Positions 22,837 through 46,241 of a stretch of 64,000 nt of DNA are shown here, one piece after another (positions within the stretch are counted from its first letter, which is position 1; each line of letters opens with the position of its first letter). The notes beneath the pieces are model-generated. The model did no database searches, was not told the origin of the DNA, and saw only the letters and a list, made by a program, of their open reading frames with translations. A program made the position numbers and the translations under genes. Source of the DNA: Perkinsus olseni (taxonomy: Eukaryota); NCBI GenBank assembly GCA_013115125.1, contig JABANN010000030.1, forward strand, positions 1 through 64,000, in the 5' to 3' direction.

Positions 22837-25800
22837 TCATGGCACATTATTATCCTCTTCGGAGGTCTCCTCCTCGACTCCAGCGCTCTCGAGCACCTAG
22901 TAAAGTGTTTCTGGGAGAAAAAAAAGAGCTACTGTACGTCCTATGTACCTCTTCAGCGTTCTTTTCGAGGTTCGTGTGGAATTTCCGCAAGGCTCCCTTG
23001 ATCCCCACCAGTTGGTCTGATCCAGACAAACATTCCTGCATTGTAGTTGTTAACTGCACTCCTTGGAATCACCTTTGTTCAGCTTGTCTTGTGATTTTTC
23101 TAACTCCTCGAGATCTCTCACTGACTCTTCCATAACCTCCTCCCTCTCTGCCTCTGTTTCTTTGTCTTTCTCTTCCAACTTCGCAACTTCTTCGTCGGCA
23201 TACCTGTACATGCTCACATCAAGAAGAATCCCCTTCTCAGCTAGTGGCAATACTCAGAGAACTCCTCAGCCTCCTTGTAGCCTTGGTTCAGCTGCCTGTC
23301 GTAATTTCTCACCTATAAGGTGAGAATAATCATATAGGGTGTCATAATGTTCTCATCATGCGCCCGGAATGATGTAGTAGAACACGTGCCCACCTTATCC
23401 ACGGCACGCTCGACTTTAGCACGAGTATCGGCCTGAGCCTTCTCACTCGCCTGGTCCAGCAGCTCTAGAGTTTCCATGTCGACCTACCAAGTGAGACACG
23501 TGGATCCCCATAATGACGATGATGATGCCCTACCTGATGGAAGCGGCCCAACTTCTTCTGCATGCTGCCAGCATACTCTCGCCATATTGCAATGAACTGA
23601 GCGCAGGCCTGTCTAACGAGACCTAGGCGGAAGGCCACATCAGCCTGGTCTTCCTTGTCCGATCGGTCGACCTGAACCGCTCGGCAGTAGTCGTCACACG
23701 CTGTGGGGTTAACCACACCACCCACCTGCGACTGTGCTTTGGCCAGCTCGCTCATGACGTTAGACATCCGAGTCTTCATGCCCTGCTTTATGTCGCGCAG
23801 CTCCTCTTGCCTGAAGAATCATATTACTTGTATTTGACCAGCTTCAACCTGCTCCCCTACACTTTCGTTATGTTATTTTTCTGAGCATGCTCCAGCGCGA
23901 GTAACTCCTGATTCTCCATAATAGAAATCCTCTTAGCCCCACTCGTGACAGTATTAAGCCGATCAAGTCGCTGCTTGTTCTCCAACTCGGACGTCTGTGT
24001 ATCGAACTGGGCACCGGTGAGCGCCTCTCGACGCTCCCGATCGAGCATGGACATTCCCTCCGTCATGGAAGCGCCCATCCCGCTGTAAAGACTTTCTATG
24101 CGTCGCTCCGCGTCTCCGAATTCTAGATTGAGTGTGTTGCTGTTGCCGTTGAAATGGCTCTCGATATTCCTGAACAGCGAGTCCTCGAGCTGCGGAGAAG
24201 AGGCATCTTACTCGAGATTGCCAAGGACGCTCTTCATTCCATCTTGCAGGGTGAGCATCTCATTTTCATCAACTTCTTCTCCTGCACGGAACAGCAAGTC
24301 CGGGAATTCTAGGTAATGCGACCGGCTGACCACCTCTCAGTATCTTCGCCTTCATAGCGTCATCCGCTTCTTTCACCTTCACGGCAAATTCCTTCATCCG
24401 CTCCAAAGCCTGACAATCCCCGTGACATCGTTACGACTACCGACAACGACATGATACCTCAAGATTCTTCTTTGCAGCCTCCCTCTCCTCCTCGCTCTCA
24501 GCGTTGGACGCTTGGTGACGCAACTCTGAGATCTTCTTGTCGATCGCCGCGTGTGACGCATAGAATCCCCTCTGAAGGCCGCACACATCCTCTTCGGCCA
24601 GGTAAATGGGAACAAACCGACCTGCAGTTCGTCCATCTTCGCTGCCACCGTCTTGGGGAGAGCATCTACTCGCTTCTTGAAGTTCTCTGTCAACCTATTG
24701 AGGTCGCCTTGCTCCTTCCCTTTCATCTCGCTAAAGGAAAAAACAGAGATCTCCAGACCGACGCTCCGCAGCAAGACTCAACTTTACCTGAACTCATCCA
24801 GGAGCCGCTTGTAGTCCCCCTTGAACTTATCGCCTTCGCCGTTTATACTCTTCGTGACGCTGTCAAGCTCTCCCTCACTACCCTCCTTATCCCTCTCGAA
24901 GCGATCAGAGTCCTCCTCGAGTTTGCGCTGGACGTTCTGAAATCAGCAGCCATGGTCAAGCACTCCTTGGCCCGTTGCGGGGCAAAGCACAGCGGGCAAA
25001 AAGTTGAAGGTTCGCCCTCAAACGCGCTATGAAGTGAACATGAAGGTGAATGATACTGAATGGTGCACGTGGTCATTCGCTATATAATTACAGCATCATC
25101 GGAGCGCTCAGCCTGTAGCCTTCTCTCAGCAGCATTGATTGCTCTATCAGCCTCCGACTCTCTCTTCCGAGCATCTTGCTCGGACCTCTGGGATGCGGCA
25201 TCCATCTGAGATGATACAGAAGACTCGACCACTACGTACCTCAACCTCACTGCCCCACCTGATCCCGCATTTCCCGCTCGATCTGTCCCTCATCTCCAAC
25301 CAGCTTAGCTCTGATGCCCTCAAGCTCAGCCCCTGCCTTGGCTGTGTTCTGCGACAGATAGTTCTCGTAAGCCTTCAACTCATCATCAAGGTTGAGCTGC
25401 TCTCCACGTTGAAGTCGCTCCATCTCCTCTTCAGTGCGCTTGAGGTCCCCTTCCAAAGCCCTAGCCCGGGCCTTCTCATTGCCCAGCCTACTCTGCAGCT
25501 CCGCATACCCCTCCCGGCCGGCACCTTCATAATCCTGCCATTACGAGACAAATGACCCCCGAGTAAAGGCCCTCGTGAATCCCAGCTCACCTTTATTCCG
25601 AGACCGTACTCTCCAGCTAGCAGCCCAAACTCCTTTCGAGCCTTCAACTCCTCGTTGTGCATGCTTGCCGCGAGACTGCTCTCCGAGCCGCCCAAGAATT
25701 GCATCAGTTGAGCACCCTGAGGGAAGATCCTCAGAGAACGCGACGGGTGTGGCAATGAGGTTACCAGCCCGAAGAGCGTCTGGGCGAGTTGCCTAGCAAG

Positions 25801-28800
25801 GCGCTGCTGGTTGGTATACACCCTACGCTCCCCATCCAGCGCATCACCCTTCAACTGGCTCTCATCGTGTGACAGCCCCATTATGCTTTGGAGCAGGCCA
25901 TTGGCTGAGCTTCCTACGCCTCCTATCTGGCTGAGGATGGCCTGCAGATAACACCAACACAATGACGATGCTGCTGCTACTGCGAGTACGTCGTCGAACT
26001 CACGTGAAGGCCCTGGTTCATTTTCCCAGCCGTGTCCTCTTCATCAGAGAGCATCGCGTGACTCAGTCCGGCCAATTTACCGTCCAGACCGTTCATGCCA
26101 GCATGCAGGGAGCCCTGAATACCACACATGGTCATGCGTCGCTCCGCTGAGACTCGGGAGGAACCCTATCCCCTCCTGCGGCTTCTCACCTCAATGTCCT
26201 TCTTAATGCCGTACGCCTGCAGACTGCTCCTCGCTGCATTCTGGTTCAAGCTGTCCACCAGATGCATGACACCGCCCTGTAGGTCATCACTAACCTTCCC
26301 CGTCTCGTGGCTGAACACGCTCACCGATCATCAACTACCGCAAGGACGCTTCACTTACTCTATACTCTTCAGCTTAGCCTGCAAATCTGCCGCTGTCGCC
26401 TTCTCGCCTTTGAGGACGCCATCGATGAACTCGCCCAGCACCTGCCCCATCTTGCTATTCTCCATGCCGTTCTCTTGCATCGTCTTTCGGATGTTCTCTG
26501 ATGAGAGGACACTCTCCTCCCCAGCAAAGCGTCATCATCAACAACAGTACTCAGAACTTCTTCCTTAGCCCCCTCAGAGGCTCCGTAGATGTCCTGCTCA
26601 GCACCCGCTAGCGCGGAGAACAGCGAGCCCAGGATATCAGCAACGCCACCGCCAGCAGCACCTGGCGATTCAGCAAAATAAGGAGTCATTGCAGACAACT
26701 TTCTCCGATAGCTCACTCATCTTCTCAGAGATCGCGTTCTTGATGCCGGCCTGGCCTCTATTGGCCTCCTCCCCCAGCTCATGGGCCCCCGTCTCGATCT
26801 CCATACCGACATTCTTCACCATCACTGAGGAGGGCGTCGTTCGAGGGTGGACGGGAGTCGTAGTGAGCTCACTTTCAAGCTCCTCTCGGGTCAGACCGAT
26901 ATCCTCGGCTAGCTTCTGGAACTCGCCCCACCTGCCCGCACGCTTCTCTGCAAGGAGCAAGCATCGATCAGCATGAATGGCGGCTCAAAGACTCACTCTG
27001 GAACTCTTGCTCTTGAAGGGCCGCCTTTTCCTTTGCGCTGGCCAAAGAGTTCGCCACCGATCCCTGAACAGAGAACGATAATAAACGGTTTATTATCACA
27101 CAACAGTAGAACAGCGAACGGCCGCAGCTTTTCCAGACAAGACTGGTTAGGTCTGTACTCAAGGAAAGAAAAAGATCAGAAACCCAAGACTAACGCGAGG
27201 GCTGAGCTCGACCATGTTTAAGGCGGGTACTTGACGACCCAGCTTCGAGCGTGCCATACGGCCAGCATAGTTGCCACCGGCTGGTCACCTGGGCTAGCTC
27301 CAGTTCTTGGCGTTCTCCTTGCAGTTTGGCATCCAATGACTTCCGACGATTATCCTCCTTGGCCTAGGGAAGGGCAGTCTCCACACAGCCATCGCGCCGC
27401 AGGTGAGTGCTAGAGCTCGGACTCCTACCTGCCAATCCGATGCTTGATTTTCTATCTGCTTTTTGGTCGCCTCCTCCAGCTGCTTCGTCTGCTTATTCGC
27501 CTTCTCTCTGAGAAGTAGCTGTAAAGCCCCGCTGAACCCCGCCACACTTACTCGTATCCAGCCACATGCTTCTTCAGCTCGGCCTCCCCCTCATCCTCCG
27601 TTTTACGCAGATCGCTACGGATCTCGTCCGCCACTTTGTCTCGCTCCTCTATGTCTTTCACCGGAACCTCCGCCAGCTCATCTGATCAACGACTCTCGCC
27701 ATTCGGCCACTCCGGACAGCGTGAGGGCGAGGGACGGCAAGCCAGCAACCTTACCGGCGATGTTGGTGAGAGTATCCTCGGCGTCCTCCAAGGTCTTCTC
27801 TGCTGTGGACTCGAGCGTATCTTTCTGATGCTCCACACCTCGAGCTGCGCGCTCTACCTTTACCTAACCATCACCAATGCTGCTGCTTCCACGACAGCAA
27901 ACTAGTGGCGCGATCAGTGTAATGAGAAGTAGTAGAAGTATGAGCGGCGCAGCATACTTGAATCTCGTTGATGCCCCTGGCCAACTTTGTTAGTTTATCA
28001 TTGGCATCTTGGTTGAGCCGAAGCTGATTCGCCATCTGGTCGTTGGCTTGACCAGCTACGACACTCTGTACGCCGGACACTAGCTGAAACCATGGACAAC
28101 AATCACATACCACTCCAATCGCTCCTCCTGCGCTCACCGAGTTGAAGGCCTTAACTGCACCGCTCTTGAGATCGTCTATGTCCGCCGCATATCCGAAGTG
28201 AATCTTATCGAACTCAGCCCAGATCTCATCGGCTGCCGTCACCTGAGCCCAGCTGTCACCATGCTGACCACACTGGCTGTAGTACTACCGTGGCAGAATG
28301 CAGCTCGTAGAGGGCAGCCGAGGCGAGACCAATCTTATGAGTCAACCCGTCCTTAGTCGACGGTTCCGCTTTAGTCCCTCCCTTGCCATCTGAACACGCC
28401 TGACTATCATGCAATTTGCATGATGCATGCATGATGCAAACCCAAGGCTCTCCTCTCCCTACAGGTGTATTGCATCAGCCGATCTAAGGTCGTCTCTGCC
28501 TTGTTCCAGTCCTCCGCCAACGTCTGATGACAACAGTGACGCACTGGCTATGGGAGGCAGCAGGTAGCCTACATTAGCCTTCACTCGCACGTCCTTCCCT
28601 TTGTCGTGGACCTCCTGCTCTGGTCCGAACTGCTCCCTTATCATCTTATACCTGACAAGCACACAATGTCGAGGACATCACTCAGCGAGTCCTCCTACCT
28701 TCGGATGTGGCAGTCGTAGTTGTCAGCATCGGAATACACCCCAAGCATCTCGCAGGCCCTCACCCCAGCAGGCTCCCCCCTCCGTCGTCTTGCTTTGTAT

Positions 28801-29421
28801 ATCAGCGCCATCTCAGCCCTAGCGTCGACTTTGCGGACCTGATGAGGAAGGTGTGGTATTGAAGGACAGGTGAGGGGCTCCTACGATCTCCATCAGCTCC
28901 TCCTCAGTGCCGAGGTCAGAATAGTCCGCGACAAGCCGACTTATCTGCAGTAGGAAGAAGCGGGGCAGAATCACAAGACGATGCACCAACACTAGAAAGA
29001 CTCCCCGCCAGCGGAATCGGTCCGAATTCATATGCTTGGCGGGTGAACAAGAGCAAACACTATCGATGATAGTGGCAAAAGCCGGGCGCTTGGGAAGTGA
29101 GAATTTATCCCAGCCGCTATGCCGTTAAGCGGAGTCTATAATTCCTTTCCAAGAGTCGGGCGAATCAAATATATGCCTGATGATTTGGTGCAGATGCATG
29201 CAGCTGTCTACCTCATCATCTCCTGCTCGCGGCCGGTGAGCCCGATGCGCCAGCAACGATGAAATATCGGCATCATCAACGTCTAGTGTGTCGTCCTGAG
29301 AAGGCTACTCACAATCAGAGGGAAGGCTCAGGCTCACCTCAGAGGCAGCCGTCGTCGCTACCACCGTACAAAGGGCTGTTGCTGTTCCAAGTGCTGTTAT
29401 TAGGCGGCAGCATTTTACCAT
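22837..29421 (-). CDS. Giant secreted coiled-coil protein C1 (paralogue family of unknown function)
   Basis: Signal MVKCCRLITALGTATALCTVVATTAASE|DVDDADISSLLAHRAHRP; LVADYSDLGTEEEL; RACEMLGVYSDADNYDCHIRRYKMI; WAEFDKIHFGY; dozens of helical exons; ends VLESAGVEEETSEEDNNVP*. Confidence 0.8.
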
Positions 29422-29607
29422 GCGCCTTGACAAGAGATGAATAGGTAATGGCTGCCGATGGATATAACAGCCCACCCAAACTCCCTGGCAATGACGAACA
29501 CAATCACGAATCATGACATCATCGCAACAACAGCAGCAGCAAGGCAGCATCGAGTGCTGCATGCCCATAAAGTGACGTGGTCACAAGACCAAGACCTCCC
29601 TTCCCAC

Positions 29608-32600
29608 TTAGCGCGCGTTCTGGAGCACCTAGGACGGCGAAAGCATGGCGACCACTGTGGCGAGCCCACCTTCCACCAACCTGATTGGCCTTCTTCGTCA
29701 TATCGTCCTCAAACTGCGCGATGTTATCCCGGACGTACTGTCGCTCCTCTGAGAACACCAACCATCGTCAACAACAGGAAGGCTCAAACCTGAACCCCCT
29801 ACCAGCGTCCATCTTCTCCTGTTTCCGTTGCAAGTCCGCAAGCTCAGCCTTCGCCTTCAGTAGCAGCTCATTCCGATTCTCATGGATAGCTCGTTGACGC
29901 TCCTGTAGTTTCGCTATGTGCTCCTGCATGTACCTGGGGCAGAGCTACACTGCCTTCATGCCAAGCCCCGGCCAGTGGGCTACTTCTCGAACGCTTCCTC
30001 CTCTTCATAGCCCTTATCAAGTTCCTTATGGACGGTATTGACCTGCCGAGAGACGTTGCCACACGCGCCCCGTCAGTGGACGCCCTTCACCTTCTCCATC
30101 GCCTTCACGACAACATCTTCGCTCTTCGCCAACTCATGCCGAACTTGTGCGTCGAGCTGCTCGATAAACTCAGCATCAGCCTGATCAACATTGACGCATC
30201 ACCTCCGAGCACACGAATTCTGTCCGAGCCTTACTTGATGGAAGCGTTGGAACTTGGACGACATAACGGCCGAGAAGTCCCTCCACAGACTGAGGAAGTG
30301 TCCAACTGCCTGCCGGACCAAGCCCAGTCGAACGGCGATATCCCCTTGCTCTCCTCTAGCCTCCGTCTCGACCTGCGGAGCACAACGGAGCGTCCCAAAT
30401 CGTACCAGTCACTGGGAGCCTACATCCGCTTGGTTCCTAGCGAGCTCCGACATCACTGCTCCTATCCGCTTCTCAATGCCCTCCTTCATGTCCCTCACAC
30501 CATCATACCTGACCACCCTCACTGCAGCGGCCCCTAACACAGCCTGCCAACTTACACCCTCGAGATGTTGTTCTTCTGGGCATGCTCCAACTTGTACAGT
30601 TCCATGTTCTCAACTTTTATCAATTTACCGGCCTTCTTCACCGCATTGGCAACTCCGTCGATCCGCCGTTTGTTATTGATCTCTGTTGTCTGACGGCAGC
30701 CAGGTTCATCGCTCATCGGCAGTCCGGCCGCCGCGTCCCCACCTGGATGGCAAACTTGGTTGAGAGCTCCGATTCTTTCTGTTCTCGATCGAGAAGAGCA
30801 TTGGTCTGATTCATAGCTGACTCCAATCCTGAGCCGACACCGCGGGTGAGCAGCAAAGCAGCAGCGACCGACGTCTCACCGTGAAAGAGCATGCTGGTCC
30901 GCTGTGCAACATTTTCCACCTCTCCCTGCAGGTGAGTCGTCTCACTGTTCAAATGAGCGTCGAGTATCCTAAACAGGGACGATCAACCCACACCGATTCC
31001 GAATCGCCGCCTACTCGAGGTTCCCTATCACACTCTTCATGCTAGTCTGCAATGCATCCACCTGTCGGTTGTCGATCTGTTCACCTGCCAACACGATGAA
31101 GATGAGCGAACAGCCTCGGAAGGCCGAGGTCACCATTTAGTATCTTCTGCTTTAATGCTGCATCAGCCCCTCGAACCCGTTCGGCCAGTGTGCGCATTTG
31201 CTCCAGAGCCTGCCGGAGATCGATCTCACTCAGATGAAGAAGAGTTGCCTAGCCACCTACCTGCACGGCCTGCATCGCCGCCGCCCTCTCCTCCTCCGTC
31301 TCAGCATTCCTTGCCTTATGTTGGAGCTCGCTCAGTCGGACCTCTATCTGCTGCTGGGATGCCGTAAAGTCACGCTGAAGACGATGAGAGTGAACACAAG
31401 AAATCAGCACGCATGCGCGGCGCTGGTATCTCCACACTCACCTCGATATCTTCAGCCGTCTTTGACATAAGCTGCGGTAACTTCCGAACCCGCTCCTCGA
31501 ACACTCTAGTAAGGTTACGTAGCTTCTCCGTCTCGTGATGGGACAGGACACTAACACACGCAAGAGGCCGATGAACGCCCGGCAGAAAGATGCCGCAGCT
31601 CACCCAAAGCGTTCCATCAAGTTCATCAGGTGGTCCTGGAAGTTTCGTTTCTGCGTCTCCGCTGAGCTGAGCACACCATCCAGTTGCTGCCTGTACCTGC
31701 CAGCGACACCCATCCCAACACGCCCTAGCCGCTACACCCTCACCCTCTCGACGCCCGGTCGAACAGCTCCCCATCATCCCGCAACTTCTTCTCCAAAACC
31801 TGAAAAGGTAAACATCATAGGAGAGCACACAAGCCAGTGTAAACCCACCGCCGAGTTTGTCTTCTCCGCCAAGTACTTCCGTCGAGCGCCGTCTATCTCC
31901 CCCTCAGCACGGCTCTCAACCTCATGCGCTCTCTTCTCTGCGCTCAGCATCCGGGATTCAAGCTGAAATAAAGACCCCCGTCAACAGCAGCAGCAGCGGG
32001 AGTAGCTGGATACTACCATGCTCTTCAAGCTCTCCTCCATCTTTCCCTCGTTACCAGCCATCTCAGCCTGCACTTGGGCCAGCGCCGCGTCAGCCCGAGA
32101 GTCGCTCTGAGCCAGTTGCTCCGTGAACAGATTCTTCTCCTTAGACAACTCCGCCTGCTGCGACTTCACCAAGCCCATGATGGAGGCATCGACGCTCTTC
32201 AGCTCTTGCTGCAGCGTCCGGGCCCTCTGCTGGTCCAGGCCGAGGCTAGAGGCCATATCCCCGGCTATGCGGTGGGCCTCCGCTTCGTAACTCTGAGCCG
32301 GGAATCCGCATCGAGCATGAGTCAACCTCGGCAGCTCACCTCAATCCCATGGCTGGCCTGAGCGGCCACGTCCTGAAAGGCTCTGTTTGCCTTGTTGTCT
32401 TCATCCTTCATAGCATCTTCCATTCCCGACCCAGAAGCTCTCACAAAGGCGTTCAACCTCGAGGCCTGTTGGAAGAAGGAGGAAAGTCCAATGGACGCTC
32501 AGGAGAGCCAGCCTAGGCAGTACCAGCTCGCTGTCCGTGGTCGATAACAGCTTGGCCAAACGCTGCAGACTCTCAGAGGACCGCCGCTTCTCAACAAGGA

Positions 32601-35600
32601 TGTCTCCCTTAAGGTTCCCTTCCTGTTGTGCCAGGCCCCTCAACGCCTTCACCAGGTCCTCAGCGCTGCCACCAGCATCAGTGACCATCTTCAGTAGGCC
32701 CTGTGAATGACACGGTTCGACCTAAGATACGCCCGTCATCAGCCTACCTGGAAGTTCTTCCTCATCTCCGTGTCTGCGCCCTGTATGTTCCCCTCGGCTT
32801 GCCTTTCCATGTTGCCCATTTTCCCTTCAAACTCAGCACGGTCACGATTGATCGTACCCTGACAAACTCGGTCTTCCCCCAGCCCCTCCTCATCGCCGCC
32901 ACCACCACCTACCTCCGCCGTTTCCTTGATCTTCCTAGATTTTTCGATATTTTCTCTGGCGGTCTCATCAAGAGTCGTCGACAGATCATCAAGGCCCTTC
33001 TGAAGCCTCTCGCCAACTCTCGCTGTTTCGGCCCTGCACAGTTGACCACCGATTCCATATCGTCCCAGCATCGACCTAAGATCCTCCTCCACATGACCTA
33101 CCCAACTTCCTCATTCTTCGACTTGACATCAGCCGACAAGGCCTTCTCTCCTTGCTCTATGCCATGCACCAGCTGACCCAGCACAGCCGCCATGTTAGCG
33201 CCTTGCTCGCCGCCTTCTCGGAAGGCATTCCGAATCATCGCTGAACGCCGTCATCACCATCACCAACTAGCAGCCTCTAACCTTACCCATCACTTTATCC
33301 TTGGCCTCGCTCGAACTAGAAAAGATGTCCTTATCGGCCGACGAGAGGGAACGATCCATCGACAGTAAGACGTCCGCTAGGCTCGCCCCGGCTCCACCTG
33401 AACATCCAGACCATGCATCACCGGAGGCACTGAAGGTAGCAAGAATAACATACTGATGGTCTCGGATATCTCCTTCTTAATAGCCGCCTGCTTCTGCCGT
33501 GCCTCCTCCGTCAACTCGTGAGCTTGCTTGTCCGTATTAGCCGCATACTCGTTCAGCATACCTACGGTTGCATGGATTCTGTTTATCGCCAGCATCAACC
33601 TAAGATTCCCTCACCTCGAAGTTCCTTCATAGAACCGGCCATATCAGCTGATACCTTCTCCTGGTCATCCCACTCCTTCTCGGTCTCACCTGAGACGAAA
33701 CCTCCAAACTAATAACCCCATGCCCACCCTCCACTCACGAGCAAAATTCTCAGCCGTCCGCTGAGACTTCTCATCAGCTGAGTCGAACTCTTTCCGGAAG
33801 GCCTCCTATAACCCACCGAAAGATGCCCCTCCGCAAGCAACGGCGCGTCTGCCCCTCACCTGTCGTTCCTCGACCTTCGCGCCCTCCTGGGAGATCTGAG
33901 ACTCCACCACCGCCCGGCGCTTCTTCTCCTCGCCCTAAAACGAGGAACCTCCCTTCTCCAACTCTCCCTTCCAACAGCCCGCTTACCTCCCACGCCTTGA
34001 ACTGATTGTCGATCGATGCTGCGCCGTCCTCGACGAAGCTGTCAAGTTTCTTATCTCCATCAGCCCTGCCACCGACTGTCCTCAGCAGCACAGTACTGAT
34101 GATGTCCGCCTACCTGTAGCCCTCCACCAACTTGTGCTGTTCCTCGGTTGCCTTCATCGCGGTGTCTTCGATCTTCTCCGAGAGCTGTCTGCGGACCTTC
34201 TCCCTCGCCTCCTCTTGGACCTCTGGCAGTTCCGCCACTTCGTCTGAAAATAGCAATGGAAGGCGGAGCGAAGCAACCGACATGATTCTCACCCGAGAGC
34301 CCAGCAAGGGCGTCCTCTGCATCATCTAACCCTTTCGAGGTAACTTGCTCCATCCGAGTCTTCTCCGAGTCAGCCTGCTTCACCTCGGCTTCCACTTTAA
34401 CCTTCACCAGCGACAGCAGTCCAAAGACCATAGTAGGCCTCCGAGCTACTCACCTGGTTGCTATTGATGGTATTAACCATATCATTGAGCTCCTTATTGC
34501 CATGCTTATTCAGTATGATAGTATTCCTCAGCTGCGCATCCGACTGCTTCCTAGCTAGCTGCGATATCCCCTTCAGCAACTGACGAGCCGACGACCTCCA
34601 CAACCCCAGGCACTCGCTGATTGCATTACATTATTGAGAGCCGTAGACATCTCCGACTTGTACTGGTCCACGTCCGCCACATAGCCATAGTGAATCTTAT
34701 CAAGCTCAGCCCAGAGTTCATCTGCGCTGGCAACCTGACAGGAAGGCCGATAGGTCGCTGCATTCCGACAAAAGGAGGACCCTTACCGCAGCAGAATTCA
34801 GCTCGTACATGGCCCCGGACAGGAGACCAATCTGATGAGTGAGCCCCTCAGTCTGACTAGGGGACTCTTTGGTCGAGCCTGGTCCGTCTGACAAGCATGG
34901 AGCGTAAATGATATCGCCGACAAGTTCCGATTCCCTTACAAGTGTAGCCCATCAATTTATCCAAGTTGGCCTCGGCTGCATCCCAGTCGGCTTGAAGCGT
35001 CTATAAGCGAGAAGGGGCCGTAACCACAGGCAATCCTCGCCAGACTACACGGAACACTCACCGACACATTGGCGTCCAACTTGCGAGATTTCTCATGCAG
35101 CTCTCGCTCAGGTTCGAAGAGCGCCTGTATCATCTTGTATCTGCGCATCGTTCTCACTTAACTCCGCCGCATTGATCAGGAGGCCTCTATCACCTCCGTT
35201 CGTGACAGTCGTAGTTGTCAGCATCGGAGTAGTAGCCTGTCTCCTCGCAGGCCCGGACTCCTTTGCCCTCCCCTTTACGCCGTCTGTTCTTATGAAAGAG
35301 GGAAAACTCGGCCCTCGAGTCAACCTGTAATGGACAGCGCATTGAGGACGGTCAGGACAGTCGTCCACTGCCAGGGTACTTTTGACAGTATTTGTATCAG
35401 TTCCTCCTCCGATCCCATATCGGGGTAGTCAGCGATCAATCGCTTAACCTGTAAAGAACCCAGTCACCTATGCGAGCACGTCTTTCATGAATGGTCTATC
35501 CCAATCCTCAATGATGCTTCAAGTAATATCACACCGCAGGAGGTCCACTAGCCGGTCCTCGACGAACCAGCCGATTGATCACGCATGTTGAATTCAGGCA

Positions 35601-35849
35601 GCACTTTCGTGTCCCCGAGCCAGCCCATCCCCAGCCTCCGACCATCAGTACCTCACTATCTTTCATGCTCGGCAATCGCGCCCGATGTGCGAGGAGCTCG
35701 TGGATGTTTTCATCATCCATGACGTCCTAAAAGAGAACTCTGACTTCAATCACTCCCACAACTACCCGCTGGCCCCGCCCGACTACTACATCATCGGCCT
35801 TTGTGATAGCCACTATGGCCAATAACAGTGAAGCCGGTCGCACTAACAT
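29608..35849 (-). CDS. Giant secreted coiled-coil protein C2
   Basis: Signal MLVRPASLLLAIVAITKAD|DVMDDENIHELLAHRARLP; LIADYPDMGSEEEL; RACEETGYYSDADNYDCHERRYKMI; WAELDKIHYGY; ends ...KKANQ|VLQNAR*. Confidence 0.8.
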
Positions 35850-35973: not shown

Positions 35974-36287
35974 AAATTTGCCCGCGCGTTCGGTTCTTAG
36001 GTGGGAGAAGGAGTATCTCATGTTGCTTCAGTACGGATGTAGAACGCCTCAGCTCAATGTGCTACCCATCCGTACTATACACAGTCGAATAGCGGTGAGC
36101 GAGGAGGACCAATTCCGTCTTCCCGTCTCCGTCCCCTAGATAATTAAACTCATTAATCCGATAACTCAAAATCCGGATCCCGAGTTTCGTAATCTGTTCA
36201 TCGACCACCCCTTCTGTATCCGTCTTGTTAGGGAAAGAATGTCTCAGTGAAGTGTCTCCCATAGCGTGCCGACCGTTGACCAGTGAA

Positions 36288-39331: not shown

Positions 39332-39920
39332 CGGTAAAGTTGTCCGAAAGACTATTGCACCAGGAGGGATACAAATCGTTAAGATTAGCGTCGAGGTAGG
39401 CCCTTTGTGTGCTACAGCCTCAGCCTTGTCCCCTTTCGGGATTCGCCCAAACAGAGCTTCTCCACATCACAAAGACCATCGAGCGTTTGTCTTAGGAGAA
39501 GTGGAACAATCGTTCAAGGATGGGCTTCGAAGTGGGGGCACGTGATTCGGCGCACTACGGCGGGGTAGACACTTCCTTAGCCGTAAGCTAAAACGTCATT
39601 GTGTCGGTCTCTGTGACAGGGACTCTGTCCCAATCCATCACATGACACAGTCACATCAGTCGAGCTCTCGATTAGACACTGATGACACGAAAAAACTACA
39701 TTGCTGATAATGTTTCGATAATGCTCAACGGGCGGTTCGAAGGAAGTCAGGTATACGAGCAGTAGTACAAACACTCTTGGACAGCTGTGCCAATAGTCCC
39801 CGTAGCCTCGAGAAGCGTTAAGATAGTCCTCTCGCACGCAGCTCTACTACTAGCAACTAATAACACAACGCTGAACTCATTTCCAACATCAAAGTAGCCT
39901 GTATCATGGTCATGACATAG

Positions 39921-42900
39921 TCACGGTGGACCACCGGGTCCACTTGGTGCAGCAGGAGGCGGAGTATTGCTAGGAGGAGCCGAGTTGTCGGCAAGGAGAC
40001 CTACGCTCACCAGCACTTGATCGGCCTTCTCTGTGATGTCCTCCTCCATCTTGTCGACAGTCTCTCTGGCATTCCTCAACGCCTCATCATCGAGCTCGTT
40101 CTGTTTTCTCTCCATCTCTGCTAACTTGTCTCTGACTCTCTCGGCGAGAGCTTCTGTGCGGTTCGACACTTTCGCCTCTTCAACTTTCATACGTTTCACG
40201 CTGTCCTCCATGTTGCTCTCAAATTCCTTACTCTGCACGTAGCCCATGTCCAGCTTCCTATGAAGCTTATTAACCTCATCCACGGACTTCGTAAGGATAT
40301 CCTCAGCCTTCAGCATGGCTTGATGCAACCTCATCGTGAGTTGCTCAATGAACTCAGCGTCGTCCTTCTGGAAGCGCTTGAGATTCTTGCCCATCACCTG
40401 CGAGTACTCATCCCAAAGTTGAAGGATGCTCTTCACAGCCTGTCTAGTGTGAGCCAGGCGGATAGCAATATCGCTACTATCGCCTGCCTCGGCACCTTCG
40501 AAGTCCATTTGGATCTTCCCAAGTTCACCCATCACATTCGACAGCGTCTTGGTCATCCTCAGTTTACTGTCTTGAGCCTTCTTAAACACGCCCGAGATGT
40601 TATTCTTAGCAGAATGTTCCAGCCCTTGGAAGATGGCTTCCTCATGCCTCGCTAGTATGGCCGCGTGATCCTTCTCAGCTTCCGTCTTCTCCAGCCGTCT
40701 AGCGTTGCCCATGTGAGACGTTTCAATATCAAACTTGTTGCCAGCCCTTCCCTCCTGAAGCTCCTTTCCAAGCATAGATTCAACCTGGACCACCGCTCCC
40801 TGTGCGCCCGAGAGTAAACCCGTGTCCCTCTGACCAAACTCCCTGACTTCATCACCAAGCTCATTATTCTCAGCGCCAACAGCGTCCTCGATGGCCTCGA
40901 GGTTACCGGTAACTCTCTTCATGCTCTCCTGGACCTCCTGAGTTCTCTCGTTGTTCACATCATCGCTCTTCAGCAGCACGCCTTTCATTTTAGTATCATC
41001 CGCGCGATCCTTGTTTGCCAGCTTTTTCAGTTGCTCCATGATTCTGATGCCCTCCTCAGCCTCGTCCTTCTCTTCCTCAGTCTCCTTCGTATTAGCTCTC
41101 TCATTCAGCTTAGTGATTCTGAGGTCGATGTCTTTGGTCGTGTCAAGCGCCTCCTTTTCGATCTGCTTCGCCGCCCTGTCGAAAACCTGTGGAATGTCCG
41201 CGAGCTTCTTCTCGAGCTCTTCAGTCCTATGCGACAATCTTCCAGCTTCCCCTCCAGACACTTTCCTGAAGACCAGAACCGACTACCCACAGAGTCAACG
41301 CGACCGTCGCCGTGACTCACGCAAACTTCGTGTTGAGACCTCTTGTCTCATCATCAAACTGACTCTTTGTGAACTCAATCCCTTCCAAGATCGCATCGAG
41401 CTCATCCTCGAACCTGCTCCACAAAATCATGACATGACGAAAATTCCAGAGGAGCTAGCAGGGAATCGTTTCTAACGAGCGGAGCCCGTCGCTCCGCTCC
41501 GGAGTCGCTTCGCTCCAATGGCGGCGCTCTCAGTCGAAACATTGTGCAGTTAGGCGTAAAGTGCAGGAAAGTGTGAATTTTTCACGCGCGTTGTAGTGAA
41601 TGAGTAGAGTTCGTGTGAGAGATGAAGGAAGAGGATGTGAACATACCGGCATGGATGAGGAAGCTGTGGCGTCGATTGAGACGCATGTCCAAGACGGGAA
41701 GAAATAGAATCAGAATTGTGACAAACTTGACAAATGTGAGTATTTCACGCACGATTATGGCCGCGTAGCATAAAAGTATTAATACTGGACCCACTTTTTG
41801 GTATGCTTGTCAAACCGTGTAGCATCCGACGTCAGCTTCTTGGTCATGACCTGAGATGGTGGTGCGAGTGGGTCTAGTGGTCACTAGTGCAGCGAAAGGT
41901 ATCAGAGTGAGCAGCTACTCACGCTAGAGCGGGTCTTGTCTTCCAGGTACTGCTTCTGTCCCTCATCCAGCTCAGTCTGGGCCTTTGCCAACACCTCCCT
42001 GCTACGCTGGCTGGTCATGTCCATGCCGGACTTCAGCTGAAACGCGACAAAAATTTGATCCTTCTTCAGCATCGGCAGGTGGAATCACCTCGCCCCGTAT
42101 TTCCTTCTCAAGGCCTCCCTGAATCTGCGAGAAACGGCCTCGAAGTGACTCCACTTCGTGCTCGTTGCTGATGGCCTGTTTGTCGAGAGTTCTCCTGAAA
42201 CACAACGGGAATTACATCCAGCGAGGCCAAGAGAAGAAAGAATGTGCCAGCTTTGTTCCGGACTCACGTGAACTGCTGCGATTCTTCGGCTAAATCTTGC
42301 ACCTTCTCGGCCATCACATGTTCCATATCTTTCTCAATCTGAGCATCGAAGGTTGGAACTCGGCGGTTACTATCTGTCTCACATCAGCAAGCTCCACTCC
42401 CAGCTCCTGCCCCCTTCGGGCACTCGAAGTCATCTTCGACCTCAGATCCCTTCCCGTACGGAAGTTCTCCGATTCGACGTTCTGAGGACGAGCATGCTGA
42501 GCGACCGAGACCATCAATTGCCGATGCACTTACTTGAATGTCACGAGAGGCATCTCCAGCCACCTCCCTGAAGCCCCTATTAGCCGCATTGGCCTCTTCG
42601 TCCACTGCCCTTCTCCCGTTAGAATGGGAGGTCGCTAGCGCTTTTGAGAGAGCGTTCAACTGGGAGAAGCACTCGTTTCATGAGGCTGGGCAGCTCCCCC
42701 AGGGCTTACAAATGCAGCTTCCTGCTTCGAGATAGAGGTACCAAGGCGGGCAAGGGTTGATCTAGAGTCGCGCTGCTGGGACATAAACTCCGACTTGATC
42801 TTATGCTCCTCTGGAGACAGGCGACCGTCACAGCCCATCACGCAGGCAAGTCCTCACCTCTTTCGATCCCAGCTAGTGCGGCATCAACGCCCTTAGCAGA

Positions 42901-45900
42901 CATCATAGCGTGTTTGATAGCATTGATGTGGGCCTGTCAAGCGGAAGATGTCTCGACCAAACCCGATCCTCCGTCACCGGGTTACCCTCTTGTTGGCGTC
43001 CATGGTCATCTGGACGTTATCCTCAGTGTGCTCGAGGTCACGGAGAGCTCCCTTCATCCTATTCTCGGTTTCCTTCACCCCTTGAGAGATTTCGCCCTGA
43101 AGTGGGACCCCGATCCCGTCGCCCTCAATTAGAGAGAAAAAACGCCTTACCCCGATTTTCCTCCCGGTGGCATACGACTCCGACTTCAACGCTGAGCCTT
43201 CCTGCTGCATCTTCAGCGCTAGCCCCATCATCGCCTCTTGCATGGCAGCACTCGTCTGCGTTATCTCAGCACTGAAGAAGGCAGGCTGTTTCCCGCCAAA
43301 GCAGCCCTCCACCGGCACTCACTCCAGTCCGTTGATCTGCATCTTCAGACTCTCGACCAAGCCAGCCTCTCCCGACCGCAGAGCATCTTGCAGCTGCATG
43401 ACCAAGCCTCCCATCTTGCTCTGCTGCATGCCGAGTTGTCTCTGCATGCCAATAACTTTACCTGAGAACTCGCGAGTGAGAGAGACTTACTGATGGCATC
43501 CAAGCTCACCCATGACATTCCTCATCTCCAGTCGGGATGCACTGTCCATATCCCGATTGGCGTTCGCCATTGAGCTGTCCATCGTCATGAATAGCTCCCC
43601 GAGATGAGAGCCCGATGAGGCTAATGATACGGAAGCCACGATTTTCGAGTGGCGAGGAGCCTTTCAGGTAGACCTTACCTCGTAGCTCGGAGACAGCTCT
43701 CTTCAATGGTGTCAGCTTCTCTTTCCTTTGCTGCTCTAGCCCAGATGAGCCCGTCTGCATCCCCTCCTCGAACTTGGCAAGCGTCGCTATGAGAATACCG
43801 ATGGCAACCATCATCCCCTGCAGCAGCAACGACCTACCCTCAACTTTCTTCATAGCCTCATTCAGGTCACCAGACATGTTACTATCGTGGGAAAGAGGAG
43901 CCTCTGTTTCATCTGGCCGGACCAATGGTGGACCATGCTCGCCACGGTCGATTCAGCTTACTCCTAAAACGCTCCATGCGCTCATCAGCTTTGTTCTCAG
44001 CGCTGTCATATTTATGCTGCATCTCCTCCTGAATCACACCAAGAGGGTTAGCTTCTTAACGCACTTAACAAGGATTCGGTCGTACTTGCAATGATTCCAC
44101 GTCCTCGGTCTGTTGTTCCACCTTCATCTCTCCATCTTTCCGACGGGCCTCTTCGCGCTCCTAAAAGGGATACCACGACCTTGCATGACACAGGGTCGGA
44201 AGATACTCGCTTACATGTGCCTCGGCGGTCTGCTCTTCAATCTGCTTCTCCCCGGACTCCATCAGTTTATCAGTTCTTCCATCAGTTTGCTTCCTGACAG
44301 AGGGAAGTATCAGCCACACCGATGCAGCCATCAATGACTCACGTGAACTCGTTGAGAGTATGGTCAGCAGCAATCTCCAGTTCGTCCCTGACTTTGTCGA
44401 CTTCCTGCTCAGCCTTGTTCTGGGCCTTTTCATGAGCTTCGAGTGAAACCTCAGGTACTTCCTGTATCTCGTCTAAATAGCACCAACACTTGAAAGATTT
44501 CAACCCTCGCCAGCGATGCTTACCGGAGAGATCATCTAAGAGGTTCTCCGCGTCTTCTAGGAAGCCTTCAGTGCTTCGCTCCATCGTCTCCCTAGCGCCC
44601 ATAGTCTGCCTCATCCCTTGCTCCACGGGAAGCTAATGAGGCCCAATATCAGAGTGGATAGCGGAATACTCTAGGCGTCTCCTCCCCACCTGTCCCTTGT
44701 TGATAGAGCCAACCGCCTGCTGCATGTACTTGTTGCCGAGCTTATTGAGACTGATCATATTCTGCATCTGCGCCTCCGCTTGCATGCTGCTCTGGAACTG
44801 GATGCCCTTCACCAACTGGAAGCAAACAACTCACTCGGACTGAACCTTTATTCTCCTTACCGTGTCGAGTCTCTTATCTGCCTCTCCCTTCATAGTGTCC
44901 ACATCAACGATGACGCCGTAGTGAACCTTGTCTAGCTCCGCCCAGGCCTCATCGGCAGCCGCGATCTACAGAAACAGGGTCTCGCAGTCACAAGAGCGTA
45001 GCTCCGTAGCAGGGCGGTCGTCCAGCCACAAAAAGCACTCACCGCAGCATCCTTAAGAGATAGGAGGGAGCCAGCAAGGAGGCCGAACTCGCTAATTAGT
45101 CCCGTGTTCTTGCTCGGATTGTCCTTGCTGAACCCAGGCCCATCTGAAAGGAGCGATAACAACAACCGACGAGGAGAGGGAACGCAAAGCCTACAGGTGA
45201 GCCCCATAGCTTCCTCCAGCTCAGCATTGGCGAGCTTCCACCTCTGCTGCAGACTCTGAAGGGCAAGAAGGAGTTGTATACCCGACCGAGACAGACTGCT
45301 GCTGCTGCTGCACGCTGTCTTACGTTCGATTCACTCTGAAGCTCCGTGTTGTCCTGGTGGAGTTCCTTCATCGGTTGGAGCATGCCTTTGATGAGTTGAT
45401 ACCTGTTGGAGTCATGAGACCGGGCGAAAGGAGGGATCAGTGTCACCCTACCGCCGCCTGTGGCAGTCATCATCATCACCATCCGGGTCGCTGCCGCGGG
45501 ACTCGCAAGCCCTTGCTGGACTATCATTCTTTCTCCGACGGTTCTTGTGGAACAGAGTCATCTCAGCTCGAGAGTCGACCTGCAGGGAGGAGGCCAGTAG
45601 ATGAGTATCCAAGGTTGATGCTGGCAGTTCATACCTTGGACAGCATCTCGATGAGTTCAGATTCCGAGCCCATGTCAGGATACTCGCTTACCAGCTGATG
45701 AACCTGCGAGCAAGCAGCTGGGAGACCAGTGGTCGCAATCCTGGGCTGATACGGAAGGCTCTGATACCCCAGGAAAGGGGGCAGAGATTGTGCACTGGCG
45801 GAACGCTGCTGCGACCGACAAGGGAAGCATCGTCCCGCAGCAGTGGGCACGGCACCCTAGAGAGCAGTCTAAAGCCGCTCAGGCAGACCCCATAGAAGGG

Positions 45901-46241
45901 CTTGAATGATCCCTCAAGGAGCTCGATTAGACGTCATCCACGCCTACAGACTCTGGTGGGGAGGGGAGGGAGGGGAAAAGGGAGCGATGCCAACCGCTGT
46001 GACGTACTGGCCCGTGGTTACCTCGTCTTCCCAGCCGGGGGCCCGAGCACGATGAGCTAATAGTTCATGAATGTTCGCATCATCCACTACATCCTGAAAG
46101 GCATTTGTCGCATTGAGAAGGCCAACTCCTGACTTATTCCGCATCTTCCATGCTCAACCCCGAGATACGCCCCTCCCTTACATCTTCCGCGTTCCCGATG
46201 GCAAAGCAAGCCCAGACGAAGAGGGCCGACCGTACGATCAT
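39921..46241 (-). CDS. Giant secreted coiled-coil protein C3
   Basis: Signal MIVRSALFVWACFAIGNAED|DVVDDANIHELLAHRARAP; LVSEYPDMGSESEL; RACESRGSDPDGDDDDCHRRRYQLI; WAELDKVHYG; single 1345-nt terminal exon 39921-41265. Confidence 0.8.

What the first reader, a model, noticed from the sequence alone, without database searches (positions are those of the whole stretch)
22837..46241. Three-member cluster of giant secreted coiled-coil proteins with an unrecognised conserved N-terminal domain
Seen: C1, C2 and C3 (each about 6.2-6.6 kb, same strand, roughly 1,300-1,500 aa by estimate) begin with a signal peptide. They then share D-V-x(0,1)-DD-x-[DN]-I-xx-LLAHRA, L[VI]xxY[SP]D[LM]G[ST]ExEL, a basic RRR[RK] cluster, RACE-x(11-12)-DCH-x-RRY (two conserved Cys), W-A-E-[FL]-DK-[IV]-H-[FY]-G, and a C-terminal block (D[IV]AxRLxxxRQA...W.[ED][YF]...RF). 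Long helical rods lie between these blocks. Automatic pipelines would probably mislabel them myosin-like. Inference: a dedicated extracellular structural system (wall, sporangium, extrusome or filament), possibly a hetero-oligomer, with proprotein cleavage at the basic cluster.
Basis: partly seen in the sequence, partly recalled or inferred. Interest (0 to 1): 0.8.

Follow-up and report, generated by a model that had tools for sequence, protein, structure and literature searches.

The report
Three giant secreted helical Perkinsus proteins
Three neighbouring genes of the shellfish parasite Perkinsus olseni encode about 1,350-residue, almost wholly helical secretory proteins of an uncharacterised family, otherwise seen only in unnamed environmental sequences, and they look like building blocks of an extracellular or organelle matrix whose role is still unknown.

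Summary
On the minus strand lie three intron-rich paralogs: C1 (29421-22837, 1371 aa), C2 (35849-29608, 1347 aa) and C3 (46241-39921, 1370 aa). The organism is Perkinsus olseni. C3 and C2 are spliced in RNA contigs, and C3 carries the Perkinsus spliced leader.

GenBank calls them hypothetical proteins and fuses C2 and C1 into one model.

The conserved "N-terminal domain" is not a separate domain. Homology runs the whole length. An N-terminal profile finds 38 proteins (E<=1e-3), most of them 1,144-1,406 aa from unnamed, intron-free metagenome contigs; only the Perkinsus proteins carry an organism name.

The family signature is:
- a signal-peptide-like start and a variable leader;
- an invariant RRR followed by an acidic C-x12-13-C loop;
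- a body of about 1,250 residues with tightly conserved length.

The body is not a heptad coiled coil. Its apolar stripe repeats every 3.6 residues, and AlphaFold gives a confident long antiparallel hairpin.

No Pfam or PDB family is met. Apolipoprotein matches stay far below threshold.

Best reading (about 0.4): a pro-protein-processed structural matrix protein of the secretory pathway. Cleavage, location and hetero-oligomers are untested.

The parts
22837..29421 (-). C1 gene: ATG 29421, stop 22839-22837; 37 exons, 1371 aa. First exon 29421-29338 encodes a signal-peptide-like start (MVKCC...AASE).
   Evidence: My splice model is 99.6% identical to residues 1314-2663 of GenBank model P0050. 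The first exon and start are inferred only. No spliced RNA contig was shown for C1.
29608..35849 (-). C2 gene: ATG 35849, stop 29610-29608; 40 exons, 1347 aa. Signal-peptide exon 35849-35790.
   Evidence: Model. It is 100% identical to P0048 residues 1-1341. Introns 30373-30423 and 30509-30555 are confirmed by RNA contig joints. The last exon (VLQNAR*) matches the ends of orthologs P0002 and P0003.
39921..46272 (-). C3 gene: spliced-leader acceptor AG at 46272-46271, ATG 46241, stop 39923-39921; 30 exons, 1370 aa. The last exon, 41264-39921, is intron-free.
   Evidence: It equals P0001 (FOZ61_005944) with one difference, T447 versus M. 11 of 11 displayed RNA joints match model introns. A loose end at 46272 reads as the 3' end of the Perkinsus spliced leader.
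45451..45576 (-). C3 exon with the family signature: FHKN-RRRK, then C-x13-C acidic loop (RACE...DDDDCH). Equivalent sites: C2 RRRK 35274-35285 and RACE 35244-35255; C1 RRRR 28779-28790 and RACE 28749-28760.
   Evidence: The motif RRR..C-x12-13-C is present in 35 of 38 family proteins examined.
46019..46093 (-). C3 leader exon with DVVDDANIHELLAHRA. C2 equivalent LLAHRA at 35679-35696; C1 at 29239-29256. The leader (residues 21-81) is the best conserved part among the paralogs.
   Evidence: Leader identity is 55-73% between paralogs, against 21-29% in the central body.
44915..44944 (-). WAELDKVHYG block of C3 at the start of the second, very long helix. C2 equivalent 34684-34713; C1 28192-28221.
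   Evidence: The AlphaFold hairpin consists of helices at model residues 85-138 and 153-283, with pLDDT 85-94 over residues 90-240.
40371..40472 (-). C-terminal conserved block of C3 (DIAIRLAHTRQA...LWDEY...RF). C2 equivalent 30241-30342; C1 23540-23641.
   Evidence: The same block (D..TRLALVRMAM..FLGLWNEY..RFH) occurs in the metagenomic relatives.

Best explanation
C1, C2 and C3 are tandem duplicates of one lineage-restricted protein family. The family is found in Perkinsus and in unnamed, probably alveolate, environmental eukaryotes.

Each protein appears to enter the ER through a cleavable-type signal peptide. It then carries, in order:
- an acidic, well conserved leader;
- an invariant RRR cluster;
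- an acidic loop closed by the only two conserved cysteines (C-x12-13-C);
- an all-alpha body of about 1,250 residues whose length is held nearly constant across the family.

The body has a narrow apolar stripe repeating every 3.6 residues and folds back on itself in very long antiparallel helices. It is not a heptad coiled coil.

My committed reading is as follows. These are pro-proteins of the secretory pathway, cut at RRR by a kexin/subtilisin-type convertase. The mature rods then self-assemble, possibly as mixtures of paralogs, into a lumenal or extracellular lattice such as the cell or sporangium wall, or the matrix of a vacuole or secretory organelle.

Shown: gene structure, transcription and splicing of C3 and C2, family membership, all-alpha nature, periodicity, length constraint, motif invariance. 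Inferred: ER entry, disulfide, cleavage, assembly, location.
For: **Organism and models:**

**RNA:** spliced contigs and the spliced leader 30 nt upstream of C3's ATG (PmaSL1 sequence read in a passage of PMC3101222).

**Signal-peptide-like starts:** a basic residue before and acidic residues after a 12-16-residue hydrophobic run in C1-C3.

**Family:** 38 hits to the N-terminal profile, 26 of them at E<=1e-10, most of them proteins of 1,144-1,406 aa. They are collinear over the whole length: C2 against P0010 gives one HSP, 52-1341 versus 19-1310, E 9e-62.

**Signature:** RRR..C-x12-13-C in 35 of 38 proteins. The distance from RRR to the C-terminus has median 1249 and IQR 1230-1266 in 33 full-length proteins, while the leader before RRR varies from 31 to 156 aa.

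**Composition:** only two conserved Cys and 7-8 Pro in about 1,350 residues in three of the five proteins examined (C1, C2, P0003); C3 and P0005 have 21 and 14, partly in their proline-rich C-terminal tails.

**Fold:**
- All-alpha, with a confident N-terminal hairpin.
- About 90% helix in a full-length relative.
- Periodicity 3.60-3.64.
- Apolar face about +/-45-60 degrees wide.

**Several paralogs kept side by side in both lineages:**
- Three here, sharing 24-35 intron positions.
- Four on contigs of one size, 28,015 nt.
- The duplications were independent in the two lineages.
Against: - No localisation, proteomic or N-terminal data exist, so cleavage at RRR is not shown.
- The leader is the most conserved part among the Perkinsus paralogs (55-73%). 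That is unexpected for a discarded propeptide, though sorting or chaperone pro-domains can be conserved.
- In 11 of 33 relatives a 17-50-residue G/A-rich hydrophobic stretch lies directly before NSHKD-RRR. It reads like a membrane anchor followed by a stop-transfer cluster, which would put the rod in the cytosol.
- The tertiary fold of the body is unknown: the full-length model has mean pLDDT 39.6.
- N-glycosylation sequons are not consistently enriched; z ranges from -3.8 to +5.4 and is -0.7 to -2.1 in the Perkinsus clade.
- C1 expression is not shown. The only listed C1 contig is unspliced and overlaps a predicted intron.
- No signal-peptide predictor was run.
Confidence: 0.4

Rival explanations
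1. Giant apolipoprotein-like proteins. Secreted amphipathic helices coat or carry lipid, for example to scavenge host lipid or to cover a lipid or membrane surface, opening from a helix bundle as exchangeable apolipoproteins do.
For: - Pfam Apolipoprotein A1/A4/E (PF01442) matches 10 of 36 family members (best E 8.3e-9), and ApoLp-III matches 3 of 36.
- A profile of five relatives hits apolipoprotein A-IV in the PDB at E 2e-6 and apolipophorin-III at E 0.02.
- Periodicity is 3.6-3.64 rather than 3.5.
- Secretory signal plus a basic processing site.
- Low AlphaFold confidence for a fixed tertiary fold.
Against: - All scores are far below Pfam's cut-offs: best 35.8 bits against 90, and 25.3 against 36.3.
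- 0 of 4 Perkinsus-clade proteins match either apolipoprotein family (PF01442, PF07464) at E<=1; the only matches are two weak, below-cut-off hits to unrelated families (SNX17-31_F2_FERM in P0003, DUF2786 in P0002).
- The apolar face is narrow (about 90-120 degrees), and Lys/Arg are not concentrated at its edges as in class A lipid-binding helices (the class A pattern is recalled).
- There are no proline-punctuated 22-mers, since Pro is nearly absent.
- A strict length constraint is not expected for a lipid carrier.
Confidence: 0.2
2. A membrane-tethered cytosolic scaffold. The N-terminal hydrophobic segment is an anchor, RRR is its cytosolic stop-transfer flank, and the 1,250-residue rod lies in the cytosol on an organelle or cortical membrane.
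For: - In 11 of 33 proteins a hydrophobic stretch of 17-50 residues ends a few residues before RRR (...GVFNSHKD-RRRK).
- In P0025, P0038 and P0026 the N-terminal hydrophobic run itself reaches to within about 10-15 residues of RRR.
- Basic residues after a membrane helix usually stay cytosolic (positive-inside rule, established knowledge).
Against: - C1-C3 and their nearest relatives have no hydrophobic stretch near RRR. Their only hydrophobic run is at the extreme N-terminus, with a basic residue before it and an acidic run after it, which predicts translocation of the body.
- The stretch varies from 14 to 50 residues and comes and goes across the tree. That would flip the topology of a conserved domain.
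- The two invariant cysteines flanking an acidic loop fit an oxidising compartment better.
Confidence: 0.15
3. The family is of giant-virus origin or is carried by giant viruses. The environmental members would be viral genes and the Perkinsus copies acquired ones, so the function would be viral (for example a virion or factory structure).
For: The environmental contigs are intron-free and very gene-dense, with spacers of 46-100 nt in L001. They carry several paralogs in a row.
Against: - A scan of the viral contig collection found no relative (80 pattern matches, 0 confirmed).
- The conserved neighbours are a USP14-type deubiquitinase, whose best named relatives are dinoflagellates (37-39%), Amoebophrya and Cryptosporidium, and an RRM protein.
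- The Perkinsus genes hold 29-39 spliceosomal introns at shared positions.
Confidence: 0.05

Closest known systems
Exchangeable apolipoproteins (ApoA-I/A-IV/E, Pfam PF01442; apolipophorin-III, PF07464)
   Same: Secreted, almost purely helical, with amphipathic repeats of non-heptad periodicity (3.6-3.67). Weak profile matches in 10 of 36 and 3 of 36 family members, and to ApoA-IV in the PDB.
   Different: Scores are far below family cut-offs, and there are none for the Perkinsus proteins. These proteins are five to eight times longer, lack proline-punctuated 22-mers, have a narrow apolar face, and carry the RRR/Cys-loop and C-terminal block that apolipoproteins lack.
Ciliate dense-core granule lattice proteins (Paramecium trichocyst matrix proteins, Tetrahymena Grl proteins). 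Recalled from memory, not fetched.
   Same: Signal peptide, pro-protein processing before assembly, multigene families whose members co-assemble, and predicted helical content. This is the model for how the Perkinsus family may work.
   Different: Those precursors are about 40-45 kDa (recalled), not 150 kDa. No sequence relation could be tested here because no such sequence was held. The cleavage sites are not polybasic as far as I recall. Perkinsus is not known to me to have trichocysts.
   Same: Long, charged, proline-poor helices. The structural aligner's best matches are generic long helices (myosin, tropomyosin, ATP synthase stalk) at Z <= 7.9.
   Different: Periodicity is 3.6-3.64, not 3.5. 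There is no Pfam coiled-coil or myosin-tail match at E<=1. The chain folds back on itself in a confident antiparallel hairpin, and the proteins have secretory signals.
Granins (chromogranin A/B). Recalled analogy only.
   Same: Acidic secretory-granule cargo with an N-terminal disulfide-closed loop and basic processing sites.
   Different: No sequence or fold relation was tested or expected. Granins are largely disordered, not 1,250-residue helical rods.

Membership tests
Apolipoprotein A1/A4/E domain (PF01442) | Score at or above Pfam's gathering cut-off (90 bits) | tested here: not met
   Best 35.8 bits (P0015). 10 of 36 members match at E<=0.01, all below the cut-off. 0 of 4 Perkinsus-clade proteins match at E<=1.
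Apolipophorin-III (PF07464) | Score at or above the gathering cut-off (36.3 bits) | tested here: not met
   Best 25.3 bits; 3 of 36 members at E<=0.01.
Class A lipid-binding amphipathic helices | Wide apolar face with Lys/Arg at the polar-apolar boundary (definition recalled) | tested here: not met
   Helical-wheel averages of C1, C2, C3 and P0010 show that large apolar residues fall below 45% beyond 45 degrees. K/R are commonest at 105-180 degrees, not at the boundary. This is my own script, not calibrated on known apolipoproteins.
Heptad coiled coil / myosin-tail-like | Hydrophobic periodicity of 3.5 residues; match to coiled-coil families | tested here: not met
   Power at 3.5 is 1.5-1.8 times shuffled, against 5.8-6.2 times at 3.60-3.64, in C1-C3. 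No such Pfam family at E<=1.
Any solved structure (by sequence or fold) | Significant sequence or fold match | tested here: inconclusive
   phmmer of P0001 against PDB gives 0 hits at E<=1. Foldseek of the N-terminal model gives a best E of 3.9. The wide structural scan gives best Z 7.9 with generic long helices. Only residues 20-346 of C3 were modelled with usable confidence.
The new family itself (RRR / Cys-loop, ~1,250-residue helical body) | RRR followed within 3-12 residues by C-x12-13-C with an acidic loop | tested here: met
   C1 RRRR...C-x13-C, C2 and C3 RRRK...C-x13-C. 35 of 38 family proteins have it. The misses are P0034 (Cys pair, no RRR), P0036 (N-terminally cut) and P0009 (fragment).
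The new family itself (RRR / Cys-loop, ~1,250-residue helical body) | Length from RRR to the C-terminus about 1,250, and the C-terminal block D..[TA]RL..VR...W.[ED][YF]...RF | tested here: met
   C1 1279, C2 1266, C3 1290, against a family median of 1249 and IQR 1230-1266. The block is present in all three.
Ciliate trichocyst/mucocyst matrix proteins | Sequence relation; location in dense-core granules; processing before lattice assembly | not testable with these tools
Location and processing need experiments.

The most novel reading that the evidence does not exclude
A family specific to Perkinsus and its uncultured relatives, made of length-calibrated (~1,250-residue) secreted helical rods. 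The rods are matured at an invariant RRR site beside a disulfide-closed, possibly calcium-binding acidic loop. Tandem paralogs co-assemble them into a so far unrecognised extracellular or organelle lattice, for example the parasite's wall, its vacuole body or an extrusome-like matrix. This would be analogous to ciliate trichocyst lattices but unrelated in sequence.
Probability: 0.3. Interest if true: 0.75.

Novelty: new variant of a known kind. Interest (0 to 1): 0.55.

Why it matters
Perkinsus species are major pathogens of clams and oysters. The molecules that build their wall, vacuole and secretory structures are almost unknown.

This work gives:
- corrected gene models, separating C1 and C2, which GenBank fuses;
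- a clear sequence signature for the family;
- about 30 environmental relatives.

Together these turn three "hypothetical proteins" into a testable family. Its near-constant length, invariant RRR/Cys-loop and repeated retention of several paralogs side by side point to a defined assembly rather than generic filler.

If the proteins are abundant and extracellular, they could also serve as stage markers or antigens for diagnosis.

By sequence the family is an orphan. By likely mode of action (processed, self-assembling helical secretory cargo) it resembles known kinds, so I rate it a new variant rather than categorically new.

Tried and rejected
**No family or fold found**
- Pfam on exon pieces and on whole proteins gave nothing above cut-off.
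- PDB by sequence found nothing for P0001.
- The ESM Atlas gave no usable hit for P0001 or P0014, and it holds no models of them.
- Foldseek and the wide structural scan of the N-terminal model returned only generic long helices.

**Structure**
- The full-length AlphaFold model of relative P0025 is too uncertain for tertiary structure (mean pLDDT 39.6).
- Internal repeats: profile-profile comparison of 140-column segments gave at best 61.7% probability, at shifts near 140. This is too weak to claim a repeat.

**Glycosylation**
- N-glycosylation sequon counts against shuffles show no consistent trend.

**Binding**
- Complex prediction on the C-terminal parts of C2 and C3 gave 'no answer' (score 0.00; controls not run). 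It is no evidence either way.

**Expression**
- No RNA holder was listed as such. One run, guessed to be RNA and kept as contigs, was laid. It did not cover 22837-26299, and for C1 the rows listed showed no spliced contig (64 contig pieces and 20 joints were not listed).

**Other collections**
- No whole genome is held for this window.
- Prokaryote genome contigs and viral contigs hold no relative by pattern-seeded search. The first attempts, with a 15-sequence alignment, failed for lack of a conserved stretch.
- No USP14 homolog in the window, so there is no synteny with the environmental loci.
- Earlier findings of this scan: nothing.

**Literature**
- Seven searches: Perkinsus with coiled-coil / signal peptide / cell wall; with proteome / secreted / trophozoite; with cell wall / mass spectrometry; with spliced leader / trans-splicing; with PWP-1; Perkinsea genomes; Perkinsus with apolipoprotein.
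- None of the listings showed a paper on this family. Only listings were seen, apart from passages of 10.1101/2025.09.30.679562 (an unrelated dodecapeptide glycofibril) and of PMC3101222 (spliced leader).
- No supplementary files were opened. Proteome tables there could hold these proteins.
Full report
**What is there**

The region has no long bacterial-type ORFs, only many short open segments on the minus strand. That pattern indicates an intron-rich eukaryote.

The C-terminal block is located.

The largest open segment (39924-41282) is 100% identical to a 1370-aa GenBank protein, 'hypothetical protein FOZ61_005944 [Perkinsus olseni]' (P0001).

Mapping P0001 back gives C3: 30 exons, 29 GT-AG introns with a median of 52 nt, ATG at 46241 and stop at 39923-39921. 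There is one residue difference.

**How C1 and C2 were modelled**

I trained a small splice/codon Viterbi model on C3. It recovered 28 of C3's 29 introns, but that is its own training set.

I then used it, with two forced corrections based on homology, to model C2 and C1:
- C2: 35849->29608, 40 exons, 1347 aa.
- C1: 29421->22837, 37 exons, 1371 aa.

The models are 100% and 99.6% identical to the two halves of deposited proteins FOL46_004972 (P0048, 2685 aa) and FOZ61_005941 (P0050, 2663 aa).

Those deposited models fuse C2 to C1. They skip C2's last exon (VLQNAR, stop) and C1's first exon. I read them as two genes for four reasons:
- Orthologs P0002 and P0003 end at VLQSAR and VLQSAAR.
- C1 has its own signal-peptide-like first exon.
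- Each half is collinear with C3 from end to end.
- Most other long family members are 1,144-1,416 aa.

**Transcription**

One public run, kept as contigs and guessed to be RNA, was laid on 26300-46299.
- 34 contigs were laid, 33 of them at >=99% identity.
- Of the 15 joints displayed, 11 lie in C3 and all 11 coincide with model introns. A single 1,947-nt contig supplied several of them.
- 2 joints lie in C2 and both coincide with model introns.
- 2 joints belong to a plus-strand gene at 36016-36880.
- 20 more joints were not shown.

A loose end at 46272 reads, on the gene's strand, CTTGGCTCA followed by genomic AG. That is the 3' end of the Perkinsus spliced leader PmaSL1, ACCGTAGCCATCTTGGCTCAAG (passage of PMC3101222).

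So C3's mRNA is trans-spliced 30 nt upstream of the ATG at 46241. This supports that start and the signal peptide it encodes.

C1 has no spliced support among the rows that one search listed (64 contig pieces and 20 joints were not shown).

**The three proteins**

- They are 28-36% identical over about 1,350 columns with almost no gaps.
- C1 and C2 share 35 intron positions. C3 shares 24-26 of its 29 with them.
- C3 has lost every intron 3' of residue 923, where C1 has 11 and C2 has 14. This is classic tandem duplication followed by 3' intron loss.
- Each starts with a basic residue, a 12-16-residue hydrophobic run and an acidic run.
- The leader, residues 21-81, is the best conserved part: 55-73% identical against 21-29% in the central body.
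- The mature parts hold two conserved cysteines. Proline is scarce: 7-8 in about 1,350 residues in C1, C2 and P0003, but 21 in C3 and 14 in P0005, partly in their proline-rich C-terminal tails.

**The family is wider than Perkinsus**

A profile of the N-terminal 328 positions, built from C3, the P. chesapeaki ortholog of C2 and an unnamed transcript-like protein P0005, was scored against 1.84 billion representatives. It gave 38 proteins at E<=1e-3 and 26 at E<=1e-10.

About 27 of them are 1,144-1,406 aa long and match at their N-termini. I looked up 30 of the 38. Only the Perkinsus cluster carries an organism name; the rest come from unnamed metagenome or run assemblies.

The relatives are homologous from end to end. 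They share the RRR/Cys-loop, an LKIPQ block, an EEE[KR]E.A block and the C-terminal LTRLALVRMAM..FLGLWNEY..RFH block. C2 against P0010 gives a single HSP over 1,290 residues, E 9e-62. An occupancy plot shows nearly all members collinear.

Across 38 proteins, RRR followed by C-x12-13-C occurs in 35. The leader before RRR is 31-156 aa, while the distance from RRR to the end has median 1249 and IQR 1230-1266 in 33 full-length proteins.

**Who carries the environmental members**

The environmental loci are intron-free and gene-dense. They are followed by an RRM gene, an unknown gene and a USP14-type deubiquitinase.

USP14 relatives sit on contigs of the same sizes as five family-bearing contigs. 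Their best named relatives are dinoflagellates (37-39%), Amoebophrya (34%) and Cryptosporidium (36%). The carriers are therefore probably uncultured alveolates, but this is not settled.

Four members (P0014, P0025, P0038, P0084) are reported on contigs of one size, 28,015 nt. That suggests tandem clusters there too.

A quick FastTree places C1, C2 (with P0003), C3 and P0005 in one clade (support 100). The Perkinsus triplication would then be independent of the environmental paralogy. The tree has only a midpoint root, and long branches and composition bias were flagged.

Pattern-seeded scans found no relative in prokaryote genome contigs or viral contigs.

**Fold**

AlphaFold on C3 residues 20-346 with a 36-row alignment gave mean pLDDT 69.7. 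In model numbering, which equals the protein residue minus 19:
- short low-confidence helices in the leader;
- a low-confidence RRR/Cys-loop (pLDDT 43-56);
- a helix at 85-138, a turn at the invariant TYGPG, and a 131-residue helix at 153-283 packed antiparallel, with pLDDT 85-94 over 90-240.

A full-length model of relative P0025 is about 90% helix but too uncertain for tertiary structure (mean pLDDT 39.6).

Hydrophobic periodicity peaks at 3.60-3.64 residues. It is 5.8-6.2 times shuffled in C1-C3, against 1.5-1.8 times at 3.5. The apolar face is narrow, about +/-45-60 degrees, with charges on the far side.

This is the pattern of nearly straight helices packed in bundles, not of a left-handed heptad coiled coil.

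**Comparison with known families**

- The Perkinsus-clade proteins have no Pfam match above cut-off at E<=1 (only two weak, below-cut-off hits: SNX17-31_F2_FERM in P0003, DUF2786 in P0002), and P0001, the one searched, has no PDB sequence match at E<=1.
- Among 36 family members, 10 match Pfam Apolipoprotein A1/A4/E and 3 match ApoLp-III. The best scores are 35.8 and 25.3 bits, against cut-offs of 90 and 36.3.
- A five-sequence profile hits apolipoprotein A-IV in the PDB at E 2e-6.

I read this as shared amphipathic periodicity and composition, not membership. It is the basis of the lipid-binding rival, which the narrow apolar face and the absence of any such match in the Perkinsus proteins weaken.

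Fold searches returned only generic long helices.

**How it most likely works**

Shown:
- an expressed, spliced, trans-spliced gene family;
- signal-peptide-like starts;
- an invariant RRR at the border between a leader of variable length and a body of constant length;
- two invariant cysteines around an Asp-rich loop;
- a length-locked all-alpha body with long antiparallel helices;
- several paralogs kept side by side in two lineages.

Inferred:
- entry into the ER;
- a disulfide closing the loop, possibly binding calcium;
- cleavage after RRR by a kexin/subtilisin-type convertase;
- assembly of rods, perhaps mixed paralogs, into a lumenal or extracellular lattice (wall, vacuole body or secretory-organelle matrix).

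The model for this is the ciliate dense-core granule lattice proteins, which I recall from memory and did not test. I give it about 0.4.

**What does not fit**

- The leader is the most conserved part in Perkinsus.
- In 11 of 33 relatives a G/A-rich hydrophobic stretch of 17-50 residues lies directly before NSHKD-RRR. It looks like an anchor plus stop-transfer signal and supports a cytosolic-scaffold rival (0.15).
- The stretch's variable length, and its gain and loss across the tree, argue against a simple membrane helix. I cannot explain it.

**Surroundings**

- Between C2 and C3 lie a plus-strand spliced gene (36016-36880) and a minus-strand gene for a Cys-rich, Thr-rich mucin-like protein with a signal peptide and a hydrophobic C-terminal tail (39331-38306).
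- Downstream of C1 (lower coordinates) are an amino-acid transporter, a DnaJ, histidine phosphatases and a GT47 exostosin-type glycosyltransferase.
- None of these defines a pathway.

**Verdict**

This is an uncharacterised, lineage-restricted family with a sharp signature and an unusual length constraint, and its function is open.

A binding prediction for C2 with C3 gave no answer.

Noticed in passing
window 22837-35849 (minus): GenBank models FOZ61_005941 (2663 aa) and FOL46_004972 (2685 aa) fuse C2 and C1 into one protein. They splice from C2's penultimate exon to C1's second exon, which drops C2's stop exon and C1's signal-peptide exon.
   Followed up: yes
window 39921-41264 (minus): C3's last exon is intron-free over residues 924-1370, where C1 has 11 introns and C2 has 14 at shared positions. 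This is 3'-biased intron loss in one paralog.
   Followed up: yes
window 46271-46272 (minus): An RNA contig continues beyond 46272 with letters that, together with the genomic AG, spell the 3' end of the Perkinsus spliced leader. This marks the trans-splice acceptor 30 nt upstream of C3's ATG.
   Followed up: yes
window 38306-39331 (minus): A gene between C2 and C3 encodes a protein with a signal peptide, a Cys-rich domain, long Thr-rich mucin-like repeats (tandem DNA repeats at 38461-38919) and a hydrophobic C-terminal tail that looks like a GPI-anchor signal. No Pfam match.
   Followed up: partly
window 36016-36880 (plus): A plus-strand gene with two GT-AG introns (36386-36476, 36641-36687) is covered by the deepest RNA contig in the stretch. 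It has no Pfam match on the open segments tried.
   Followed up: partly
window 27094-27347: A low-depth contig of the same run is colinear with the genome across part of a predicted 225-nt C1 intron (27064-27288). It may be unspliced RNA or DNA carry-over, so C1's expression is not established.
   Followed up: no
window 49326-49666: An assembly gap of 98 N (49326-49423) is followed directly by a 42-nt tandem repeat of 5.8 copies (49424-49666).
   Followed up: no
window 2859-4451 (+), 7739-11114 (+), 19138-19791 (-), 21071-22635 (+): Neighbouring open segments match an exostosin GT47 glycosyltransferase, histidine phosphatases (branch 2), DnaJ (central and C-terminal domains) and an amino-acid transporter.
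   Followed up: partly
L001 2416-4944; L003 1381-2424: In the environmental relatives the family gene is followed by the same RRM gene, an unknown gene and a USP14-type deubiquitinase, without introns and with spacers of 46-100 nt. USP14 relatives lie on contigs of the same sizes as five family-bearing contigs. The window holds no USP14.
   Followed up: partly
relatives P0013, P0017, P0018, P0020, P0023/P0064, P0028/P0075, P0030, P0031, P0032: A G/A-rich hydrophobic stretch of 17-50 residues, beginning with SLVE.xPL and ending GVFNSHKD, sits directly before the invariant RRR. It is absent from the Perkinsus proteins. Its meaning (anchor, hairpin or pro-region) is unexplained.
   Followed up: partly
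window 43786-43838 (C3 residue 447): The window encodes Thr where the database protein P0001 has Met. This is the only difference between C3 and P0001, and the RNA contig joint at this intron agrees with the window.
   Followed up: partly
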